IMG/VR virus record: IMGVR_UViG_3300045922_000293
Span: 49,161-113,160 of that record
Source: a virus
Reading direction: 5' to 3' (one strand)
DNA: 64,000 nucleotides
Under the pieces are notes generated by a model. It ran no database searches, was not told the DNA's origin, and saw nothing but the letters and a program-made list of their open reading frames with translations. Made by a program: the position numbers and the translations under genes. Of the stretch, positions 6,825-18,384 are shown in pieces. Numbering within the stretch: the first letter of the stretch is position 1; each line of letters starts with the position of its first letter.

Positions 6825-8627
6825 ATGAATTATCAATATCTCACGACATCCATCAAGCGGAGGATGCTTGAAGACCTGAAGCGGCACTTCAGCTACATCC
6901 CTCAGCACAAAGATATTGTTGAGCACATCCGCTACAAGTACGACTTCAAGGAGAGGCCCCAGAAAGGCATCTTCTTGATGAACGTATCTGCCACCCCCAT
7001 GAAGCTGTCTACAGATAACTACATGGCGGGATTGCATTCTTATGTGATGCTCGGAAAACTTGATCTTGGTACATCACGGCCAAGCGGAATGTTCGTGGAT
7101 TGGGTCAAGGAAGATACGGAATTAATTGAACGTAACAAAGGCATCCCGCCTGCTTTTGCAGGGCAGTACAATCTTGAAATTCAATCCCGCATCGATCCAT
7201 CTACGAAAGAAACGGAATGGGATCTGTATGTGGACCCCATTTACAAGGTGCTTCAGGAGCCTTTGCTCACATTCGTTACGGGCAATGAAACTTCTGCAAA
7301 TCTTCAAAACATCCCTGTCTACCCGAATAGCCCGCGCCTGTATCTCAATGGGCGTACACAACTCCTAAGCGGACCTGTGTTCAGTCTTCAAGCCAATCAA
7401 AGTCTCATCATTCATGATCCCCTCTTTGGTTTACCTCAAGGTCAGATCCGTGTGAGGGCGTTGTCCCCACAGATGGCCCCGTACACTATTGTGGCGGGCG
7501 TGAATGATGTGTTGGCTTTTGAAGTGAACGGCACCCCCGTCACGGTGCTTCTTCCCCCAGGCGTGTATACAGCACAGCAGATGAAACAGGAGATTGACGC
7601 TGCCGCTCATGCGGAGAGTCTGTTTGCACCCGAGTATATCACGAATGTGGTGGGGGATCAGCTTGAGATCACGGGAATCACGTCTGTATTTTTTGAGGAT
7701 CATATCTTTTCCCCCGCCTCCCCCACTCTCGGCTTCCCCTCCGCTAGCTTTATTCCCCCTATTGCGCAGGGGGTGCTTTTCAGGCCCCGTGTATTGGACC
7801 ATCAAAATGTCATGACCTTGATTCTGGACGGTATTGAGTATGCCATCATCTTTGAGCCCGGCATGTATAAAGATGCTGTGGAGATTCGGGATAGGATTCA
7901 AGATCAATTGCCCGTTGGGGTAACCTTAGTGTTACAAGATGGGGGGGAGTACACAGTGGATAACGTGACGGGTGCGGTGACGTTCCATGTGGCGTTTAGC
8001 CCCGGTGATCACGTGATTGCGGATTATTCTTATCACGGGCCCTCCCGCGGGCCTATAGCCGTAAAGAAGAATCAAGAGGTGCGCCATGCCGTGGAAGGCG
8101 CGATGATAGCCCTTGGCGAGTCCTTTGAAGATAAAGATAAGTGTTTCATCTTGATTTTACCCCATCGTGTTCATACCGCGGATTTGTATGGGGGTAAGAC
8201 TGAGATAAGTTTGGATTTTGATATTATCGCCCGTGATCCGATGGATCGTGAGAGCCTTGTTGACATTCTTACGATGTATTTTCATCATTATGAAAATGAG
8301 CGGTTTGCTGAGGAGGGCTTAGGTATTACAAGTGTGAGCGGGGGTGGTGAGAGTGAAGAGGTCTATGATGATGTGGGGGACGATTATTTCTACAAAAGTA
8401 GTGTGAGTGTGTCTCTCCAAAGTGATTGGGAGGTAGCAGTGCCGCGCCCCCTCACCATTGAAAAGATTTTGCCCGTGACGTATGAGCAGGAGGCTTTATT
8501 AGCTGCGCGGGAGCGTGACATTCTCCCTCATGATCAGGTTTTGCGCCCCGTAGTGTCCGTGACTCAAGAAGAGATAAAAGAGAAGGCACGGCGTGGTTTG
8601 ACACCCTTTAAAGAGAGAATCCACTGA
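6825..8627 (+). CDS. putative tail terminator/completion protein with inserted decoration domains
   Basis: C-terminal SLDFDIIARD...SVSVSLQSDW fits tail-completion proteins; internal domains shared with the sheath. Confidence 0.55.
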   Translation: MNYQYLTTSIKRRMLEDLKRHFSYIPQHKDIVEHIRYKYDFKERPQKGIFLMNVSATPMKLSTDNYMAGLHSYVMLGKLDLGTSRPSGMFVDWVKEDTELIERNKGIPPAFAGQYNLEIQSRIDPSTKETEWDLYVDPIYKVLQEPLLTFVTGNETSANLQNIPVYPNSPRLYLNGRTQLLSGPVFSLQANQSLIIHDPLFGLPQGQIRVRALSPQMAPYTIVAGVNDVLAFEVNGTPVTVLLPPGVYTAQQMKQEIDAAAHAESLFAPEYITNVVGDQLEITGITSVFFEDHIFSPASPTLGFPSASFIPPIAQGVLFRPRVLDHQNVMTLILDGIEYAIIFEPGMYKDAVEIRDRIQDQLPVGVTLVLQDGGEYTVDNVTGAVTFHVAFSPGDHVIADYSYHGPSRGPIAVKKNQEVRHAVEGAMIALGESFEDKDKCFILILPHRVHTADLYGGKTEISLDFDIIARDPMDRESLVDILTMYFHHYENERFAEEGLGITSVSGGGESEEVYDDVGDDYFYKSSVSVSLQSDWEVAVPRPLTIEKILPVTYEQEALLAARERDILPHDQVLRPVVSVTQEEIKEKARRGLTPFKERIH

Positions 8628-9133: not shown

Positions 9134-10078
9134 ATGTTTTATCCTATGTATCAAAAGCCTGTGAGCGTGCAGAAGAGCTTATCCGTTATATCTGTAGAGT
9201 CTACCGCGTTTGATGTGCTGGCTAGTGAGGGTCGTATTGCCTCGGAAAGATTAACCTCGCAGATGCTTTATCCTAATATGCCTCTCATCGTGATCTGTGA
9301 GGAGAACGGGCAGAAGCATTCTTTACTGGCCATTGCGCTGAAAGAAGAAGATAAGGAAAAGCGTACAATTACGGTACATAAGGTGTCACATGGCAAAGAC
9401 GGCGGGAGTGTTAACGGGATCAAACCCCGTAATAAAGAGCAGAGCTTGTTATTAGCTCTGCTCCAAATGATGCATGTGCGAGTGCTTGTCGTCACAGGTC
9501 CGGCGGGTACGGGTAAGAGCTTGTGTATTGCAGCGCATGCTTTTGAGGTGATCAGTAAGACCAAAGATATGAAGTTGGTCTTGACGAAGCCCTTAGAGAT
9601 CGTGACGGGGACGCGTTTTTGGGGTACCATGCCCGGAAATGCAGATGAGAAGTTTGAGCCTTTTCTTAAATCTTTTTCAGTTCTCTTTGAGTCCATCTCG
9701 CCAAGGGGTGCGAGTACCCGTGAATATGTGGATGGATTGTTAAAGAGCAAGCGCATCGAATTCTATCCCTTAGAAGTGATGCGCGGGGTGTCTCACCGAA
9801 ATAGTTATGTGTGGTATGATGAAGCGCAAAACATGGATTGTCATGAAATGCTTACATTAGGATCACGCATTGATGATGTGGGACAGAGCCGTCTTGTTTT
9901 ATCAGGTGATTTGTATCAACAGGATCGTCATATCGCCCGTCCTGAAACAGGCTTGCACCACCTTGTGACCTCAAAGCATTTCTTGGAGTCCCCTCACACG
10001 GCACACATGGATCTCAATAAGATTGAGCGGGGCGTCGTGTGTCAGCTATTCCATGATATCTTCAGTGGTCTCGCCTAG
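9134..10078 (+). CDS. phoH: PhoH-family ATPase
   Basis: PRN.EQ, GPAGTGKS, G.MPG...EKF.PF, MRG.S, DEAQN, GD..Q.D. Confidence 0.9.
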   Translation: MFYPMYQKPVSVQKSLSVISVESTAFDVLASEGRIASERLTSQMLYPNMPLIVICEENGQKHSLLAIALKEEDKEKRTITVHKVSHGKDGGSVNGIKPRNKEQSLLLALLQMMHVRVLVVTGPAGTGKSLCIAAHAFEVISKTKDMKLVLTKPLEIVTGTRFWGTMPGNADEKFEPFLKSFSVLFESISPRGASTREYVDGLLKSKRIEFYPLEVMRGVSHRNSYVWYDEAQNMDCHEMLTLGSRIDDVGQSRLVLSGDLYQQDRHIARPETGLHHLVTSKHFLESPHTAHMDLNKIERGVVCQLFHDIFSGLA

Positions 10079-10247
10079 ACATGATCCGATCTTAGATCGT
10101 CTTTCGCGAAATTCCTTTTAATACCCCACCGTGTTTAAAGCCTTCGTGTAAGAAGGTCTTTTTATCAAGCCGCTATCTTTGCCATACGGCAAAGAATCCG
10201 GATATGATTTTAAAAGTGAATAGATAAAAGCGAAGGACTTGACGCCC

Positions 10248-13200
10248 ATGAGTATTTTCCCTACCTATGCTCCTCCCGGTGTATACACACAGACGCGCGC
10301 ACAGCAAGATGCGAGTGGCCCTCCCAATGGCCTCCGTCTCCCCGTGTTTATCGGTACGGGCAAAGAGACGTTGCGTCGCGTCAACCTAGAGCTGATTAGG
10401 GGTTCTTCTGTACAAGCGGATCAGCGCATTAATCGTGAGTCTGTCGCGGAGCGCGCTATTATAGCACAGACGGGCGAGACCACTTTCGTGCTAGGTGCGT
10501 TTGATGGTGTCACGAATCGTATTCAGGTTTTGAATTTTCCGATTACGAATGGGAGCGGCCAGGGCCTTCCGAGCAATAATGTGGCGGATGTGGTTGTGAC
10601 GGTGAACGGCATCCCCGTCCGTCCCGCCGGAATGCGCGGCGCGTTAGGTGTGATCACGCTTCAAATTCCCCCGTTGCCCGGTGATGATGTGCGCGTGACG
10701 TACTCGTTCAAGCGCACGGACACCCTCATCACAGATGATCTCAGTGCTCAGGTCACCACCCAACCCGCTCGATTGTTTGGTGCTTTGCCTGAACCTTATA
10801 CGATTGTATCAGGCGTCAATGACACCCTGATTTTGATCGTTGATGGTGTGACACATACCCGCACCTTACCTGCTGTGACGGGTATCACGGCTTCGGATCT
10901 TGCGGTACAAATCAATGGCTTGCTTATCCCCGGTTTGACGGTGTTTGCGGATACTGATAATAGGGGTCAGGGCCGTCTTGTGTTCGAGGCAGCGCAGGGG
11001 ATCCTTATCGGGGCGGGAACCGCAAACGGGGTGCTAGGATTCATCACGGGACAGCGTACAAGGCGCAATCAGGTATTCTTCACGAATCAGGGGCCGATTG
11101 TGGATGGTCGTAACGGCGGCATCACGACGACGGACCCAACAGATGTGAGCGTGCGCGTGGACAACGTGCCTGTCATTCCCCTTGCGGTGGATGGGACAAA
11201 CTACTCAGTCACGTTGCCCTTTGCACCAGCGCCGGGGGCTCGGGTTGAAATCACCTATTTCTTTAATGCTTGGCAAGACACGTTTGACTACCTTCCTGAT
11301 ACGGGAGTCACGAATGTGCTTCAGGTGGGAAACATCCCCGACAAGCGCGATTATCGTGAAGAGCTTGATTATGTGGTCCTAAATGATCGCATCCTATGGG
11401 GTGCCGCGACGAATATCATGTCGGGTGTGAACACGGGGGGCACGGATCCTTTCGGATCGGAGCAGATCTCAACGCTTCTGATCGATAACCGTATGTATCT
11501 AGAGCGCGCGACAAGATTTGTGGATCGTTCCGTAAGCCCCGCCCGCGAGTCGAATACGACGTTTATTCTTGAAAATATTCCCACGCTAGGTAATGGGCGG
11601 GATACGCCACTGAATCTTGACGTCTTTCATGCGGTCGCCAACGATCGTATTCAGGTGCCCTCAAATCGAACGGATTTGATTCAAGTCTTTACAGGCCCCA
11701 ACTTATCGAGTGCTCTGCTTGAAGGCCCGAGAAGCGTTGTGCGTGTTACGGCGACAAATCGTAGGGTGACATTAGCGGAGCCAATCCCACCTGATCATTT
11801 CATTTGGGTGTCTTATTACTATAATCGTCTGCGTGATGATCGTTATACGCTAGAGGTGCAGACGCAGACTTCGGGTCTTATTCCGGGCCAGTACACGGTC
11901 ACGTCACGACTCCAGGGTCAACGCTTGTATGATGTGCGTTTTGGTACGACAACTTCTAGCGTGCCGATTGCATGGCCCTCCGGTGTTGAGACGGATCCTG
12001 ACGGGTTCATTGTAGGAGGTCAGGGGCGTAATGAAACCGTGACGGTCACATTTACGCAGATTCCTGCCACCCCCGCAATTCTCACGAATACGTCAACGGG
12101 GCCTTATGACCTGTATGCGACTTTATCAGATCGGCTTTATATCAATGTATCAGGGACGCCGACTACAACGAATTTGAATCAGCCCGCTCCGGGCACCCTT
12201 GTGAGCGGCGCGCATCCTTCTGCAACATTGTTCACCTTTACCCCTTCAAATAACGTCTTCTCTTTTGAGCTGGATGGGGTGGTGTTCAATGCGAATATTC
12301 CCGCAGGTGTGTACACGGGTCCGCAGATTGTTGAGCGTATGAATCGCGCCGCGTTGCCCTTATCTACCGTGACGGCGGGCATTGCACAGCCTTATGATAT
12401 TATCTCACAGGTGCAAGGCACGAATGCCGCGCCGTTTGATATCTTCTCGCAGATCACGGGGTCACAAGTTGGGCCGTTCAATATCTTCGCAGCGGTGCAA
12501 GGTACGAACGCGGGGCCTTTTGATATCTTTGCAGAGATTCTTGGGACGAATGTGGGGCCTTTTGATACGTTCGCGACGCTGACCACGCCTAGCTCCGAGC
12601 CTTTTGATACCACACTCGGCAATCATGTTTTTGATCTTACGGTCAACGGTGTCCCTGTAAGCGTCAACCTCACGGTGGGCGCGGCAGAGACGGCGGCTAC
12701 CCTGATCGCGGATATTACCGCCGAGCTGACGCTTCAAGGCTTAAATGTCGGGCCTTTGACCTTCCCCACTACAAATGATGTGGAGGTCTTGAATCAGGCG
12801 GGTGCAATTGAAATACGCGCAACAGATTCAGTGGTCATCGGCGCAGGTACGGCGAACACACCTTTTGGTTTTGTAGGCGGCGAGACGAGTAACGCTGTGG
12901 TGAATTTTGACGTTGAAATTAACGGCACAGGTGTGAATGCGATTCTACAGGGAGCGGCGGCTGTGCCAACATCAGCGGTGATTACCGCGTTGAGCGCAGC
13001 GGCGACCGCAGCGGCATTCAATGTGGGCCCACTCAATGTATTGACAAATGATGTGGTGTTTGAAAACATTGCGGGGGCGGTGCGTATCCGATCAACCAAC
13101 ACCGTCGAGATCGGATTGCAGACGATCACTAACACCCTTCTCGGCTTTGCAGACGCAGATCTTGACCGAGCGGATAATGCACTTGAGTTCAATATTGATG

Positions 13201-16200
13201 TAAACGCCGCCCCCATCGCTGTCCCTGTAACATTGCGAGGTGGTATCGCGATCCCCACAAGCCGTATCGCGGAAGATGTCAATGATGCGATTGCGTTAGC
13301 GGGCCTGACTCAGGGACCATTGACGACACTCACGAATCAAGCCCATGCTCTTGTGGGCCCGGGGCAAACGCTACGCATTGAAGTGAAAGAGTCGATCACT
13401 GTGCTTGCGGAGACTGCAAACGGTGCGCTTGGTCTAGTGCCCGCTACGATCACCGCCCCGAATGTGTTTGACTTCACTGTCAATACCATTCCTGTCACAG
13501 CCTCTTTACTTGGGAATGCGGCGGGCCGTCATGTTCCCGCTGCAAATATTGCGACAGCACTGAACGCTGCCGCAGCTTTGGCGGGTGTGACCGTGGGCGT
13601 GCTTACGGTCCCCGGTAATGATTTTGATGCGGCGGTGTTAGCGGCTTCTATTCTACAGCTTCAGGCCACGCAGAATATCACGATCGGCGCGGGGACCGCT
13701 AACCCCGTATTAGGCTTTACCAATCTCGCTACAGCATCCTCCCCCAATACGTTTGACCTTGAAGTGAACGGCACCCCCGTCACGGTCTTGTTTAACGGGG
13801 GGAGGGGTATTGCTGCGTCACAGATTCAAACCGAGATCGAGGCTGCTTTGATCAGCTCTTTGATTGTGGTAGGGGACGTGAGTGTGAGTGGTAATGAGGC
13901 GGATGTGAGTGTTCAGAACGGGCGTGTCCGTATCAGGGCGAGGGACTCTGTTGAGGTGCTTGCAGGGAATGCCAACCCTGTGTTAGGATTTGCAGACAAC
14001 ACGGCGGTCACCACCTCAGATCAGCTCACCTTTATCATGAATGGTGTCCCCGTCAACGTCACATTAAATCGTCTTGCGAATCAAAGTGCCCTCTCTATTG
14101 CTGCCCAGATCAATGCTCAAGCGGTCGTGGCAGGTCTCAATGTGGGCCCAATCACGACACCGGGATTTGAGGCGCAGGCGGTGAGCGTCAACGGGCGTCT
14201 ACAGGTGCAAGCGTATCAGGATCTTGAGGTAGTTGCGGCGTCAGCGAACGGGATTTTTGGTCTTGTGCCTAGTGTGCTGCCCTCCAATGTGGAATTTGCA
14301 AAATATCGATCGGGCCTCAATACGGATCGATTCTTGATCCGATCCCGTGTACTCCCCACCAATCCCTCACAGGTAAGCCGTATCCGTATCCTGAGCGGAA
14401 CCGCAAATGCAACGCTTCTGTTTACCCCGTTTGCGGATGCCACGGGAACAGAGCGCGCGGTCAACAAGCCCGCTACGGTGATTGGTACGAATGTGACTCC
14501 TTTGCAAATTCAGAATCTTGCACTTCAAAATCCTGTCTTGCGTGTACGCTTGCAGGGGTCTGAATTTCAAGTCACGGGCTTTACGCTTGTCACGAACTTA
14601 GCGGATGTGGCCAACGTCATCAACACCGTGATCGCAGGGGCGGGCAGTGTGACAGTGGAGGGTCAGCGTTTGCGTGTGACCAGTGCGGTGGATACCCCCG
14701 ACAGCCTTGTGGAGATCGTGCCTGCTCCCGCCAATAGTTTCTTAGGATTTACGGGAACGGAGCGCGGGGTGTTGCGACGAGTCGCCGCATCAGAAGTGGC
14801 AGCGGTCCTCAATTGGCAGTCTTTAGACTGGCTCGCGCCCTCGGCTACAGACTTCAATGGTCAAGCCTTTGCGGATGTGTTGGGTGTTCAGGGTCAAGGG
14901 TCATTCTTGCGTATGACCACGTTTGAGGAAGGCGCGCTCCGCTCTCTTCTGATCGCGACGGGTGTACAGGATGCCACCAATGATACGGTGATTGGTCTAC
15001 AGCCTGGGGATAATGCTAGCGGTACAGATCCTATTGACGGGTTTCATGTCACGTCAAACATCCCGAATGGGTCAAGCGGTCATGGTACGGTGGGGCGAAC
15101 CTATACGGATGCCGTCACGGGGCTCAGGTTCACGGTCCTCGCTCCTACAGGTGGGGCTTATGTAGTAGGTGAGAGTTTTACTCTTGTTGTGTCGGACACA
15201 TTCTTGACGGGAGCAAGACCAACACAGGCGATGCCTGGCCTTGAGACGATTGTGACCACTACGGCTGGCGTAGGCGTTCTTGATACGGGTATTCTCGACT
15301 CTTATGATGGGGGTGGCTTTGAGCCCCGTGTCAATGATTTTTATTACATGTCTTATGACTATGTAAAGCCTGATTTCGACATACGCTTGTTCACTTCATT
15401 AGCGGATGTGATTGCGGAGTATGGGGATCTAGACGTAGATAATGCTTTGACTGTGGCGGCATTCTTGGCTTTCCAGAATGGTGCTAGCGTGATTGCATGC
15501 AAGCAGGTTGTGCGTCAGCCCGGACTTGATCAGGCATCCTCTACAGCTTATATTCAAGCGATTCAGGATCTGGAGAAACCTTTAGCGGGGGGCATTAACG
15601 CGGATGTGATTGTCCCTCTCACGTTTGATCTTAATGTGTTCAATGCCGCCGTGAGATCGGCGGAGGTACAATCCTCTATCCGCTATCGTCAAGAGCGTTC
15701 CTGCATCTTCGGTGTAGCCTCGGGTGTACGCCCGCAAGAGGCGCAGGCATTGGCGCGGGGGCTTCGCTCAGAGAGGGCGGTGATCGTGTACCCCGATTCA
15801 TTGATTATCTCCTTGCCGGATGCATTAGGCATATCACGTCAGTTTGTTGTGGATGGAGTGTTTGCTGCCGCTGCTTTCGCGGGTCTTAGTGTGTCACCTC
15901 AATTTGATATTGCGGAGCCAATGACCCGCAAGAGTATTGCAGGTTTTGATCGCTTGAATCGATCCCTTGATGAGATCGAGAAGAATAGTCTCGCTATTGA
16001 CGGTGTGACGGTTCTTGAAGATAATGGAGGATCGGTGCGTGTGCGACATAGCCGTACGACGGATCCTTCAAGTGTATTTACGTCAGAACCAAGCGTTGTA
16101 GCGATCAAAGACTTTGTTCAGATCCGAACCCGACGGGTATTGGATCGCTATATTGGTCAGAAGTTCTTGATCAGCCGTGCAGCGGATGTGGAAACCACCC

Positions 16201-16373
16201 TATCGGGCTTGCTCAATTCTCTTGTGGACTCTGAGATCATTAGGGGATTTGGTGGGGTGAGCGCCGTCCCCAGTCCGATTGATCCTACGGCGCTTGAAGT
16301 GGTAGCATTTTACAGCCCAGTCTTTCCTCTGAATTTCATCCGCCTCACATTTACCCTCCGATCCTCAACCTAA
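10248..16373 (+). CDS. giant contractile tail sheath protein (~2,040 aa) with nested inserted domains
   Basis: N-terminal YAPPGVYT and P.FIG.G; C-terminal sheath core (EYG...AFLAFQNGA, R.ER...G, GF..L....D..EKN.LA..GV.VL, YIGQK, FYSPVFPLNFI..TF); AAGGA before ATG 10248. Confidence 0.9.
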   Translation: MSIFPTYAPPGVYTQTRAQQDASGPPNGLRLPVFIGTGKETLRRVNLELIRGSSVQADQRINRESVAERAIIAQTGETTFVLGAFDGVTNRIQVLNFPITNGSGQGLPSNNVADVVVTVNGIPVRPAGMRGALGVITLQIPPLPGDDVRVTYSFKRTDTLITDDLSAQVTTQPARLFGALPEPYTIVSGVNDTLILIVDGVTHTRTLPAVTGITASDLAVQINGLLIPGLTVFADTDNRGQGRLVFEAAQGILIGAGTANGVLGFITGQRTRRNQVFFTNQGPIVDGRNGGITTTDPTDVSVRVDNVPVIPLAVDGTNYSVTLPFAPAPGARVEITYFFNAWQDTFDYLPDTGVTNVLQVGNIPDKRDYREELDYVVLNDRILWGAATNIMSGVNTGGTDPFGSEQISTLLIDNRMYLERATRFVDRSVSPARESNTTFILENIPTLGNGRDTPLNLDVFHAVANDRIQVPSNRTDLIQVFTGPNLSSALLEGPRSVVRVTATNRRVTLAEPIPPDHFIWVSYYYNRLRDDRYTLEVQTQTSGLIPGQYTVTSRLQGQRLYDVRFGTTTSSVPIAWPSGVETDPDGFIVGGQGRNETVTVTFTQIPATPAILTNTSTGPYDLYATLSDRLYINVSGTPTTTNLNQPAPGTLVSGAHPSATLFTFTPSNNVFSFELDGVVFNANIPAGVYTGPQIVERMNRAALPLSTVTAGIAQPYDIISQVQGTNAAPFDIFSQITGSQVGPFNIFAAVQGTNAGPFDIFAEILGTNVGPFDTFATLTTPSSEPFDTTLGNHVFDLTVNGVPVSVNLTVGAAETAATLIADITAELTLQGLNVGPLTFPTTNDVEVLNQAGAIEIRATDSVVIGAGTANTPFGFVGGETSNAVVNFDVEINGTGVNAILQGAAAVPTSAVITALSAAATAAAFNVGPLNVLTNDVVFENIAGAVRIRSTNTVEIGLQTITNTLLGFADADLDRADNALEFNIDVNAAPIAVPVTLRGGIAIPTSRIAEDVNDAIALAGLTQGPLTTLTNQAHALVGPGQTLRIEVKESITVLAETANGALGLVPATITAPNVFDFTVNTIPVTASLLGNAAGRHVPAANIATALNAAAALAGVTVGVLTVPGNDFDAAVLAASILQLQATQNITIGAGTANPVLGFTNLATASSPNTFDLEVNGTPVTVLFNGGRGIAASQIQTEIEAALISSLIVVGDVSVSGNEADVSVQNGRVRIRARDSVEVLAGNANPVLGFADNTAVTTSDQLTFIMNGVPVNVTLNRLANQSALSIAAQINAQAVVAGLNVGPITTPGFEAQAVSVNGRLQVQAYQDLEVVAASANGIFGLVPSVLPSNVEFAKYRSGLNTDRFLIRSRVLPTNPSQVSRIRILSGTANATLLFTPFADATGTERAVNKPATVIGTNVTPLQIQNLALQNPVLRVRLQGSEFQVTGFTLVTNLADVANVINTVIAGAGSVTVEGQRLRVTSAVDTPDSLVEIVPAPANSFLGFTGTERGVLRRVAASEVAAVLNWQSLDWLAPSATDFNGQAFADVLGVQGQGSFLRMTTFEEGALRSLLIATGVQDATNDTVIGLQPGDNASGTDPIDGFHVTSNIPNGSSGHGTVGRTYTDAVTGLRFTVLAPTGGAYVVGESFTLVVSDTFLTGARPTQAMPGLETIVTTTAGVGVLDTGILDSYDGGGFEPRVNDFYYMSYDYVKPDFDIRLFTSLADVIAEYGDLDVDNALTVAAFLAFQNGASVIACKQVVRQPGLDQASSTAYIQAIQDLEKPLAGGINADVIVPLTFDLNVFNAAVRSAEVQSSIRYRQERSCIFGVASGVRPQEAQALARGLRSERAVIVYPDSLIISLPDALGISRQFVVDGVFAAAAFAGLSVSPQFDIAEPMTRKSIAGFDRLNRSLDEIEKNSLAIDGVTVLEDNGGSVRVRHSRTTDPSSVFTSEPSVVAIKDFVQIRTRRVLDRYIGQKFLISRAADVETTLSGLLNSLVDSEIIRGFGGVSAVPSPIDPTALEVVAFYSPVFPLNFIRLTFTLRSST
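12363..12614 (+). repeat. six degenerate 42-bp (14-aa) tandem repeats inside the sheath gene
   Basis: STVTAGIAQPYDII / SQVQGTNAAPFDIF / SQITGSQVGPFNIF / AAVQGTNAGPFDIF / AEILGTNVGPFDTF / ATLTTPSSEPFDTT. Confidence 0.9.
12615..14280 (+). repeat. six ~90-95-aa degenerate domain repeats inside the sheath gene
   Basis: Each unit: F-x-x-x-(V/I)N(G), then a helix (IA..IN.A), G(L/V)NVGP, (L/V)RI.A...V.I, (T/S)AN..LG(F/L). Confidence 0.85.
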
Positions 16374-16737: not shown

Positions 16738-18384
16738 ATGAAGATGTCTAAAAAAACGATTGTGTATGGTGATGAGGCTAGGGCGAAGTTAGCAGCAGGT
16801 GTAGATACGATCGCCCAAGCAGTCGGCGTGACATTAGGGCCGCGCGGGCGGCATGTCATGATCGATCGTTTGGGAAATCCGCAAATCACGAAGGACGGAG
16901 TGACTGTAGCTCGTGAGGTAGAGCTCGACACACCTATTAGCCGCCTTGGGGCCCAAATGGCGCGGAACGCTTCCACAGCAACTGTAGCACAGAGCGGGGA
17001 TGGCACGACGACAACGATGATCTTGACACAAGCTATGGTCAAGAATGCGAGGAAGCTCTTGACGGGCAATAGTAGCTTATCCCCTGTTCTGATGCAGAAG
17101 GGCATGATGCGCGCGTCAACCCTCGGGGCGGATTTTTTGAGAAGTATCTCAAGAAAGGTGGAGAGCCCCGAGGAGATCGCCAAGATTGCCTCATTGTCGA
17201 GTAATGGGGATCACCATCTAGGGGCATTGATCGCGCAAGCCTGTGAGACGGCGGGGGAGGAAGGCGTGATCATGGTGGAAGAAGGTAAGGGGATTCAGAC
17301 GGTTTTGGAGTTTGAGGAAGGTTATTGTCTTGATCGCGGCTATTTTGATGTGATTTTTTGTGGGGATCCGTCAAAAACAGAGATTGAACTCGAAGATGCG
17401 TTTATCTTGATTTGTAATAAGAAGCTGACAGATGTCCATGAGAGCAAGCACGTGTTGCAATGGGTGGTCAGCATGGATCGCCCGCTTATCGTGATCGCTC
17501 ATGACTTTGGGGGTGACTTTTTAAAGGCGATGTATCAAAACAGCATCGCCAAAAATATCAATGTGGTGCCTGTTGTCGCCCCCTTATTTGGGGATAAGCG
17601 TGACATTCTTCTTGAGGACCTCGCGGTATTGACAGGCGGGATGGTGATTGATGATATGGCGGGGATCACATTTAAAAGTGTGGAGCCGCAGGATATGATC
17701 GGGATTGCGCATCATGTACGCGTCACGAAGACGCGGACGATCTTGTTTGACTGTACTTCGGATGCAGTCCGCTTAGAACAGCGCATTCGCCATGCTCAAC
17801 ATTTTGCAAGAACAAGCCCCAGCGAGTATGATAAAGAATTTCATCAACGCCGCGGATCTTATCTCGGGGGAGGCATGGCGATCATCCGCGTAGGCGCTCA
17901 GACTGAAGCGGAGATGAAGGCATATAAGGCCCGTGTGGAAGACGCCCTGGCTGCAACGAAGGCTGTGATCAAGGATGGCTTTGTGTTAGGCGGTGGTATG
18001 GCCTATTTAAAGACCTCAGAGTATCTCAAGGGTGTGTATCCCCAGATGAGCTTTGCCACGGAGGATGAGGAGGTTGGCTATCATCTTGTATGTGACGCTC
18101 TTGAAGCACCTCTCGTGAAACTTTTGGAGAATGCGCAGCTCAAGCAGCCTCATCGGATCTTGTATGCCGCGCAAGATTTAGGGTTTGAGGATGGTGCGGT
18201 CTATGACGTAGCACGGGGGGAATGGGTGGATGGGTATAGGGGAGGCATCATTGATCCAACGCTCGTGGTCCTGTCATCCCTGCATAATTCTGTGAGCACG
18301 GCATCCACGCTGATGATGGTGGAGGCCGTGATAGGCATCTCCGATATGGGTGAGTTTTCACCTTTTGGCATTGACCTTGCTTGA
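16738..18384 (+). CDS. groEL: GroEL-like (Cpn60) chaperonin
   Basis: TLGPRGR, TKDGVTVA, GDGTTT, DRGY, KARVEDAL, GIIDP; no GGM tail; no groES neighbour. Confidence 0.95.
   Translation: MKMSKKTIVYGDEARAKLAAGVDTIAQAVGVTLGPRGRHVMIDRLGNPQITKDGVTVAREVELDTPISRLGAQMARNASTATVAQSGDGTTTTMILTQAMVKNARKLLTGNSSLSPVLMQKGMMRASTLGADFLRSISRKVESPEEIAKIASLSSNGDHHLGALIAQACETAGEEGVIMVEEGKGIQTVLEFEEGYCLDRGYFDVIFCGDPSKTEIELEDAFILICNKKLTDVHESKHVLQWVVSMDRPLIVIAHDFGGDFLKAMYQNSIAKNINVVPVVAPLFGDKRDILLEDLAVLTGGMVIDDMAGITFKSVEPQDMIGIAHHVRVTKTRTILFDCTSDAVRLEQRIRHAQHFARTSPSEYDKEFHQRRGSYLGGGMAIIRVGAQTEAEMKAYKARVEDALAATKAVIKDGFVLGGGMAYLKTSEYLKGVYPQMSFATEDEEVGYHLVCDALEAPLVKLLENAQLKQPHRILYAAQDLGFEDGAVYDVARGEWVDGYRGGIIDPTLVVLSSLHNSVSTASTLMMVEAVIGISDMGEFSPFGIDLA

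What the first reader, a model, noticed from the sequence alone, without database searches (positions are those of the whole stretch)
12363..14280. Tail sheath with six first strands followed by six headless domain bodies: a nested out-and-back rod
Seen in sequence: the intact module elsewhere reads [x-x-L-x-G-x-x-x-P-(Y/F)-x-I] then [N-x-(L/F)-x-x-x-V-(D/N)-G...helix...AN..LGF], for example PARLFGALPEPYTIVSGVNDTLILIVDG at ~10764. At 12363-12614 the first part alone is repeated six times (14 aa each). It is followed by exactly six ~92-aa bodies lacking that part (starting NHVFDLTVNG, VNFDVEING, ALEFNIDVN, NVFDFTVN, NTFDLEVNG, DQLTFIMNG). The block itself interrupts another copy, opened at NNVFSFELDG..MNRAA and closed at RFLIRS..GTANATLLF. 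Established: T4 gp18 (659 aa) has nested domains. Inference: repeated insertion of the module into itself, so the chain runs outward as a strand through six domains and folds back completing each. Every sheath subunit would carry a long, clamped appendage, giving a hairy tail encoded within the sheath gene.
Basis: partly seen in the sequence, partly recalled or inferred. Interest (0 to 1): 0.85.

Follow-up and report, generated by a model that had tools for sequence, protein, structure and literature searches.

The report
Giant phage sheath with self-nested domains
A 2,041-residue tail-sheath gene of a very large phage carries six short "first pieces" of a surface domain followed by six domain bodies that lack that piece, most likely a domain inserted into itself six times to make a rod that runs out and back.

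Summary
ORF 10239-16373 (true ATG 10248) is a tail sheath. It has six exact 14-aa units (aa 710-793) followed by six ~93-aa bodies (aa 794-1352), all inside a split copy of the same module. An HMM built only from free-standing modules of other phages covers strand plus body in normal modules and in unit 6 + body 1. Bodies 2-6 start at HMM position 19-26, so they lack the strand part.

Homologs have 0/0, 1/1, 6/6 (four proteins) and 7/7 (one) strands/bodies, with no unmatched case.

A related sheath clade carries a second, unrelated domain as seven ~45-aa N-parts followed by seven ~70-aa C-parts (44 proteins). Single copies of that domain are contiguous.

AlphaFold2 of unit 6 + body 1 gave pLDDT 94.9 and a FliD/flagellin-like, sheath-outer-domain fold.

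The pairing of strand k with body 7-k could not be tested: the whole-block fold failed (pLDDT 39) and the complex job gave no answer.

Verdict: nested self-insertion making an out-and-back rod is the best reading (about 0.68). It is a new variant of known sheath and flagellin domain nesting. The "hairy tail" function is inference. Other first-stage readers flagged this same stretch in overlapping windows.

The parts
10248..16373 (+). Tail sheath gene (2041 aa from the ATG; the ORF opens at TTG 10239)
   Evidence: PHROG 2839 tail sheath E 2.3e-36 on aa 1690-2040; tblastn to annotated sheaths of Tunturi_5, phage G and cluster C mycobacteriophages
10752..11075 (+). Free-standing module 1 (strand part plus body, aa 172-279)
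   Evidence: independent module HMM positions 1-109, 87 bits
12066..12188 (+). Probable outer split module, N-part (aa 610-650)
   Evidence: HMM positions 3-43, 11 bits; spliced to aa 1516-1610 it gives 26.9 bits over HMM 3-107
12222..12365 (+). Host module, first half (strand b, beta1, beta2, helix; aa 662-709)
   Evidence: HMM positions 13-65; uninterrupted in short homologs
12366..12617 (+). Six 14-aa strand units S1-S6 (aa 710-793)
   Evidence: weak in-register matches to HMM 6-19 of the strand region of free-standing modules; predicted as 7-residue strands
12618..12896 (+). Body B1 (aa 794-886), contiguous with S6, the innermost complete module
   Evidence: HMM 5-105 for aa 778-885; AlphaFold2 pLDDT 94.9
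12897..13172 (+). Body B2 (aa 887-978), no strand part
   Evidence: HMM starts at position 25
13173..13457 (+). Body B3 (aa 979-1073), no strand part
   Evidence: HMM starts at position 25
13458..13742 (+). Body B4 (aa 1074-1168), no strand part
   Evidence: HMM starts at position 19
13743..14015 (+). Body B5 (aa 1169-1259), no strand part
   Evidence: HMM starts at position 19
14016..14294 (+). Body B6 (aa 1260-1352), no strand part
   Evidence: HMM starts at position 21
14295..14450 (+). Host module, second half (aa 1353-1404)
   Evidence: HMM positions 71-107; spliced host gives one 47-bit hit
14460..14756 (+). Free-standing module 3 (aa 1408-1506)
   Evidence: HMM positions 2-100
14784..15008 (+). 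Probable outer split module, C-part (aa ~1516-1590)
   Evidence: in-silico splice test
15306..16358 (+). Conserved C-terminal sheath core domain (aa 1690-2040)
   Evidence: PHROG 2839; tblastn to many annotated sheaths
6825..8627 (+). Tail terminator homolog upstream (context)
   Evidence: BLASTP E 5e-13 to the Tunturi_5 tail terminator, same gene order as in that phage

Best explanation
The sheath subunit keeps a conserved polymerising core: its N-terminus plus aa 1690-2040. Everything between is surface decoration built from one ~110-aa module. That module has a two-part N-terminal strap ('a' strand, loop, 'b' element), a hairpin turn, and a beta-beta-alpha-beta-beta-beta body ending in a tail strand.

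In this phage the module has been placed inside itself six times, each time at the turn between 'b' and beta1. The straps of the six modules therefore lie in a row (S1-S6), followed by the six bodies in reverse order (B1-B6). The chain runs outward along the straps, turns at S6+B1, and returns through the bodies, with S(k) completing B(7-k). 'b' of one unit and 'a' of the next form one continuous strand. The tail of one body runs into beta1 of the next, so neighbouring modules are joined by a two-stranded ribbon.

The result is a rod of six flagellin/FliD-like domains whose two ends meet. That is what an insert in a loop of the host module needs.

Shown: the anatomy, the missing strap in B2-B6, matched counts in homologs, the fold of the innermost module, and a second domain family with the same arrangement.

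Inferred: the reverse-order pairing, the rod shape, and the function. The proposed function is a projecting decoration on every sheath subunit, for reversible adhesion to host surface polymers or for lateral bracing of a long tail.
For: 1. An HMM from free-standing modules of other phages covers strap plus body in module 1 (HMM 1-109), in module 3 (HMM 2-100) and in S6+B1 (HMM 5-105). B2-B6 begin at HMM 19-26. Five bodies thus lack exactly the part that occurs five extra times upstream.
2. Array units align in register to the strap consensus, HMM 6-19.
3. Counts in homologs are 0/0 in many, 1/1 in P0015 and L083-L087, 6/6 in P0001/3/4/6 and 7/7 in P0005. The unit period is exactly 14 aa in all five array proteins.
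4. The last unit, cis to B1, has polar residues where the other units are hydrophobic, as in free-standing modules.
5. AlphaFold2 of aa 778-888 with an 80-row alignment gave pLDDT 94.9. The residues directly after 'b' of S5 form a confident strand, and the B1-to-B2 linker also forms a strand. The fold matches domains that are themselves insertions with adjacent ends: H. pylori FliD at Z 9.8, and outer domains of the XM1, A-1(L), PhiTE, E217 and Mu sheaths at Z 5.3-7.0. BFVD tail sheath proteins match at E 1e-4.
6. The low-confidence whole-block model still predicts 7-residue strands spanning 'b' of unit k and 'a' of unit k+1.
7. An independent replicate exists. A different domain occurs as 7 N-parts then 7 C-parts, never interleaved, in 44 sheaths of 49-100% identity. 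It is contiguous N+C where single.
8. Module-in-module insertion is demonstrable for the host module and probable for an outer one.
Against: No three-dimensional evidence for any trans strand-body contact was obtained; the whole-block model is unusable (pLDDT 39).

Count variation rests on one 7/7 protein against one 6/6 clade, so only about one independent change is observed.

Trees and identities of bodies do not mirror similarities among strands. For example, S3/S5 and S4/S6 of P0005 are alike, but the bodies predicted to be their partners are not notably alike.

In B4-B6 the preceding tail plus a two-residue turn could form a hairpin with beta1 and stand in for 'b' in cis (sequence reading).

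77 of 402 free-standing modules align only from HMM position 16 or later, so a canonical strap is not universal. Those inspected had a different upstream strand.

Units of 14 aa with a similar pattern form long arrays without bodies in other phage proteins.
Confidence: 0.68

Rival explanations
1. Beads on a string with a return strap. The six bodies fold on their own, each using the previous body's tail as the partner of beta1. The 14-aa units are only a spacer that carries the chain from the host loop to the far end of the array. Counts match because one 14-aa unit spans one body, not because the units complete the folds.
For: Tails before B4-B6 look strand-like and are followed by a two-residue turn. 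Some free-standing modules lack the canonical strap motif. No trans contact was shown (searches gave nothing usable).
Against: The units keep the same core-facing residues as cis straps across proteins only about 40% identical. B2-B6 start exactly at the hairpin turn. The second array type has 45-aa N-parts that cannot be mere spacers.
Confidence: 0.2
2. The 14-aa units form their own beta structure, either a small meander or solenoid or a shaft shared between neighbouring subunits. This would resemble the long 14-aa repeat arrays of other phage fibre-like proteins, and it would be independent of the bodies.
For: phmmer links aa 706-795 to proteins with 30-50 consecutive 14-aa units of similar pattern and no bodies, at E 3e-11 to 5e-4. 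The units are predicted as strands.
Against: There are only six or seven units, and their number tracks the body number. The units align to the strap of the module family. This reading does not explain why five bodies lack the strap. The phmmer scores come from summed periodic matches at 19-31% identity.
Confidence: 0.08
3. Two independent tandem expansions that happen to match in number, with no structural coupling.
For: No recent co-duplication signal appears in the trees.
Against: Counts match at 1/1, 6/6 and 7/7, and also at 7/7 in an unrelated domain family. An insert in a loop needs its ends together.
Confidence: 0.04

Closest known systems
Multi-domain ('type 3') myophage sheaths such as T4 gp18
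   Same: A conserved core made of N- and C-terminal parts, with surface domains nested as insertions one inside another. Large phages have more domains (PMC9230969; established knowledge for gp18). The module fold here matches the outer insertion domain of simple sheaths.
   Different: Known cases nest a few unlike domains, and that survey of 112 contractile sheath proteins reports five or more domains at the most. Here one module family is nested in itself six to eight deep. Its first parts are reduced to 14-aa units lined up as an array, and the protein is about three times longer than gp18.
Flagellar axial proteins (flagellin D2/D3, FliD D2/D3 and extra domains, FlgE), including giant flagellins
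   Same: Best structural match is H. pylori FliD at Z 9.8 over 100 residues, with FliC D2/D3 at Z 4.3-5.5. These proteins have an out-and-back hairpin topology in which outer domains are inserted into inner ones. Domain insertion is common in FliD, flagellin and hook proteins (PMC7316729). Giant flagellins give thick filaments (PMC6248924).
   Different: No sequence-family match was found (Pfam). Flagellar proteins are not sheaths. Their nests are shallow and not built from arrays of equal short first parts followed by equal bodies.
Myosin X PH1N-PH2-PH1C
   Same: A domain split by insertion of a domain of its own kind, giving a rigid supramodule (PMC3216653).
   Different: One level only, in a eukaryotic lipid-binding protein.
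Streptococcal antigen I/II stalk (recalled knowledge, not checked here)
   Same: Repeats on the outward part of the chain pair with repeats on the returning part to build a long stalk with the two ends together.
   Different: An alpha helix pairs with a polyproline helix, and there are no complemented beta domains.
Second array type in related megaphage sheaths
   Same: Same giant sheath family and the same 'n first parts then n bodies' layout inside a host-module hairpin.
   Different: A different domain, with ~45-aa N-parts and ~70-aa C-parts, always 7/7, at a different insertion site.

Membership tests
Contractile tail sheath (PHROG 2839, gp18-like) | Conserved C-terminal sheath domain | tested here: met
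   aa 1690-2040, E 2.3e-36; tblastn to 227 phage records with annotated sheaths
Contractile tail sheath (PHROG 2839, gp18-like) | Conserved N-terminal segment shared with sheaths, with the variable middle as the insertion | tested here: met
   Matches to the Tunturi_5 sheath and LR745208 begin at residue 9-10 and end at residue 2037-2043 in two pieces
Contractile tail sheath (PHROG 2839, gp18-like) | Location in a tail gene module | tested here: met
   The upstream ORF 6825-8627 is homologous to the Tunturi_5 tail terminator, which is also upstream of that sheath. No tube gene was identified next to the sheath.
Contractile tail sheath (PHROG 2839, gp18-like) | Polymerises around a tube and contracts | not testable with these tools
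   Needs virions
Nested domain insertion (domain within domain) | One domain's sequence is interrupted by complete other domain(s), and relatives without the insert have it contiguous | tested here: met
   Host halves match HMM 13-65 and 71-107, and the splice gives one 47-bit hit. The host is uninterrupted in P0008-P0013 and many loci.
Nested domain insertion (domain within domain) | Split pieces reunite in three dimensions (here S(k) with B(7-k)) | tested here: inconclusive
   The whole-block model had pLDDT 39. The tools return no contact output.
Flagellin/FliD outer-domain fold | Structural similarity over the whole domain | tested here: met
   6iwy_A Z 9.8, rmsd 2.7 over 100 of 111 residues; other FliD chains Z 5.6-6.9. 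By Foldseek the match is only weak.
Flagellin/FliD outer-domain fold | Sequence-family membership (for example Pfam Flagellin_IN) | tested here: inconclusive
   No Pfam hit at E up to 10 for seven modules. One Atlas neighbour cluster carries Flagellin_IN in 22% of members.
Free-standing 14-aa repeat arrays of phage fibre-like proteins (P0016-P0031) | Tens of consecutive units with no following bodies | tested here: not met
   Six units followed by six bodies here; 30-50 units and no bodies there

The most novel reading that the evidence does not exclude
Iterated self-insertion of a domain into its own first hairpin is a way of building long, rigid, single-chain rods whose ends coincide. It would have arisen at least twice, with two unrelated domains, in the sheaths of megaphages. 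Each outgoing 14-aa unit completes a returning body, so folding must proceed from the tip inward while up to about 640 residues of strap wait unpaired.
Probability: 0.6. Interest if true: 0.82.

Novelty: new variant of a known kind. Interest (0 to 1): 0.72.

Why it matters
Domain insertion is common, but I know of no natural protein in which one domain is nested in itself six to eight deep, and my literature searches found only a single-level case. If the topology is right, it is a clean natural example of how a repeat array can be inserted into a loop: the array brings its own return path.

It also poses a folding problem, since the straps are made long before their bodies. A phage chaperonin gene sits directly downstream.

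It predicts that some megaphage tails carry a ~20 nm projection on every sheath subunit. That would bear on adsorption, on tail stability, and on how such virions look in cryo-EM.

Finally, it offers a design principle for engineered rods displayed from a loop.

Tried and rejected
- AlphaFold2 of the whole block (aa 645-1405) with a 5-row alignment gave mean pLDDT 39, so it is not usable for topology.
- Complex prediction of body B5 (81-row alignment) with a 30-residue piece spanning S1-S3 gave no answer (ipSAE 0.01), and the controls were not run. This is no evidence either way.
- Searches for more strand/body arrays found nothing beyond five full proteins and one fragment. These were viral contigs with the block, metagenome contigs, genome contigs, the 'shorter' protein search and the 1.84-billion representative scan.
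- Another scan for further variants of the second array type returned only the query's own locus.
- Pfam and PDB sequence searches of the module found no family.
- A tree of 32 bodies shows positional orthology among P0001/3/4, but it cannot say which unit is extra in the 7/7 protein and shows no mirrored co-duplication.
- Mutual information between strap and body columns in 194 free-standing modules peaks at the invariant aromatic of 'b', so it cannot rank pairings in the array.
- 'S-less bodies never occur outside arrays' could not be shown cleanly, because 77 of 402 free-standing hits start late in the HMM owing to divergent upstream strands.
- Tandem Repeats Finder found no DNA repeat. DNA identity among the units is at most 32 of 42 with synonymous differences, so the array is not a recent slippage product.
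Full report
**What is there.** The window belongs to a 113-kb IMG/VR virus record that CheckV rates about 25% complete. The nearest phage records are a 485-kb uncultured phage, the 309-kb Tunturiibacter phage Tunturi_5 and Bacillus phage G.

ORF 10239-16373 (+) encodes 2044 aa from a TTG. Homologs start at its fourth codon, so the gene most likely begins at ATG 10248. Its last 350 residues match PHROG 2839, tail sheath, at E 2.3e-36. tblastn hits annotated sheaths, with Tunturi_5 and LR745208 matching both ends of the protein. The upstream ORF 6825-8627 is homologous to the Tunturi_5 tail terminator, which also lies upstream of that phage's sheath. This is a tail sheath about three to four times the usual length.

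**Checking the observation.**
- Their P-[FY]-[DN] core recurs at exactly 14-residue spacing. Twenty thousand shuffles of the protein never gave a run longer than 2.
- The six bodies, aa 794-1352, are 20-42% identical to each other and are not DNA tandem repeats, so the array is old.

I built an HMM of 109 positions only from free-standing modules found in other phage loci, with no window sequence in it. Against the sheath it gives:

| Segment | HMM positions covered |
|---|---|
| aa 172-279 (module 1) | 1-109 |
| aa 1408-1506 (module 3) | 2-100 |
| aa 778-885 (unit 6 plus body 1) | 5-105 |
| Bodies 2-6 | start at 19-26 |

Five bodies therefore lack exactly the N-terminal part that is present five extra times upstream. 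The units align weakly but in register to positions 6-19 of the strap consensus, and nothing in the inter-body linkers does.

The block sits inside another copy of the module. aa 662-713 cover HMM 13-65 and aa 1359-1404 cover HMM 71-107. Splicing the two in silico gives a single 47-bit hit. Homologs of 1410-1430 aa have this module uninterrupted. A further split copy probably encloses the host module and module 3: aa 610-650 cover HMM 3-43, and splicing to about aa 1516-1610 raises the score from 11 to 27 bits over HMM 3-107.

**Relatives.**

| Strand units / bodies | Proteins |
|---|---|
| 6 / 6 | P0001, P0003, P0004, P0006 (42-59% identity) |
| 7 / 7 | P0005 (39-42% identity) |
| 1 / 1, inserted at the same host loop | P0015, L083-L087 |
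| 0 / 0 | well over a hundred other giant sheaths |

The unit period is exactly 14 aa in all five array proteins, while body length varies from 88 to 98 aa. No unmatched case was found. However, the only count change among arrays is 6 against 7. Exhaustive searches found no further arrays.

**A second instance.** In a related sheath clade of about 2480 aa, a different domain shows the same layout. Seven N-parts of about 40-50 aa are followed by seven C-parts of about 70 aa, inserted in a hairpin of a host module.
- By HMM count or by spacing, all 44 proteins of this clade (49-100% identity) are 7+7, and the parts are never interleaved.
- Where this domain is single, in L027, L031 and L065, the N-part is directly followed by the C-part.
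- N-parts of this size cannot be linkers. This makes the nested reading of the window's array more credible.

**Structure.** The whole block with a 5-row alignment folded poorly, at mean pLDDT 39. Even so, it predicted 7-residue strands that span the end of one unit and the start of the next.

Unit 6 plus body 1 (aa 778-888), with an 80-row alignment of free-standing modules, gave mean pLDDT 94.9. Its elements in order are:
1. A confident strand made of the residues that directly follow the core of unit 5. This is the 'a' element of unit 6.
2. A loop.
3. A bridge at the aromatic residue of unit 6, the 'b' element.
4. A turn.
5. Two strands, a helix, three strands and a short helix.
6. A short strand in the linker leading to body 2.

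The fold is that of flagellar cap and flagellin outer domains and of the outer insertion domain of ordinary myophage sheaths:
- H. pylori FliD: Z 9.8, rmsd 2.7 Å over 100 residues.
- XM1 chain 7kh1_A6: Z 7.0.
- A-1(L), PhiTE, E217 and Mu: Z 5.3-5.9.
- BFVD tail sheath: E 1e-4.

Those domains are themselves insertions, so their two ends are adjacent.

**Putting it together.** Three geometric facts fit one another:
- In a free-standing module, 'b' and beta1 form a hairpin, and 'a' lies beside the tail.
- In the array, 'b' of unit k runs without any linker into 'a' of unit k+1.
- The tail of body j runs within a few residues into beta1 of body j+1.

If each module is inserted in the b/beta1 turn of the one outside it, the inner module's a/tail ribbon is simply the continuation of the outer module's b/beta1 hairpin. 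The chain then goes out along S1-S6 and back through B1-B6, with S(k) completing B(7-k).

This explains four things: the missing straps, the matched numbers, the strict 14-aa period, and how a six-domain array fits in a loop. It also explains why the last unit, the only one cis to its body, keeps polar residues as free-standing modules do, whereas the other units are hydrophobic there.

These last steps are inference. No tool here returns contacts, and the complex job gave no answer, so I do not count it.

**What speaks against it.**
- The tails before B4-B6 could pair with beta1 in cis.
- Some free-standing modules lack the canonical strap.
- Trees of bodies show no mirrored duplication history.
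- 14-aa units of similar pattern form long body-less arrays in other phage proteins, so such units can make a structure of their own.

I put the nested, complementing rod at about 0.68. A non-complementing return strap is at about 0.2. A self-structured unit array is at about 0.08. Coincidence is at about 0.04.

**Function.** Nothing was tested. By analogy with extra sheath domains and flagellin outer domains (PMC9230969, PMC6248924), the rod most likely decorates the tail surface. The likely roles are reversible adhesion or lateral bracing. A 'hairy' tail is a reasonable but unverified prediction.

**Novelty.** Nested domains in sheaths and flagellar proteins are known, and one-level homotypic insertion is known (PMC3216653). 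A six- to eight-deep self-nest, with first parts lined up as an array and matched bodies behind them, seen with two unrelated domains, appears to be a new variant. My literature searches found no description of it.

Noticed in passing
L032:7956-15431 (also L047, L060, L069-L080; proteins P0032-P0075): Related ~2480-aa sheaths carry a different domain as seven N-parts (~45 aa) followed by seven C-parts (~70 aa). Single contiguous copies occur in L027, L031 and L065. This is the same 'first parts then bodies' layout as in the window.
   Followed up: yes
window 7519-7546 and 13759-13786: An exact 28-bp match links the tail-terminator-like gene and body B5 of the sheath, inside the shared module. 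It suggests gene conversion or recent exchange between virion genes.
   Followed up: partly
proteins P0016-P0031: Phage-like proteins of 790-1750 aa hold 30-50 consecutive 14-aa repeats with a hydrophobic/aromatic-[DN]-[IV]-[IL] core, some alongside Laminin_G_3 or Phage_attach domains. No Pfam family covers the repeat, and its structure is unknown.
   Followed up: partly
window 16738-18384 and 9134-10078: A GroEL-type chaperonin gene lies directly downstream of the sheath, and a PhoH-like gene sits between the terminator and the sheath. The chaperonin could be relevant to folding a protein whose straps must wait for their bodies, but this is speculation.
   Followed up: no
window 12066-12188 and 14784-15008: There is probably a further split module enclosing both the host module (with its array) and module 3. 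That would make the nest about eight modules deep.
   Followed up: partly
L083, L086, L087 (match 8001-14259 in L086/L087): The tblastn match to P0005 spans about 6.3 kb, but the longest ORF is only about 1520 aa and starts about 1.7 kb into the match. This may be a second sheath-like piece, a split gene or a frameshift upstream.
   Followed up: no
BFVD hits: The same module fold occurs in predicted baseplate J-like proteins of uncultured phages at E 3e-4 to 6e-3. The module is therefore a shared decoration of several tail proteins.
   Followed up: no
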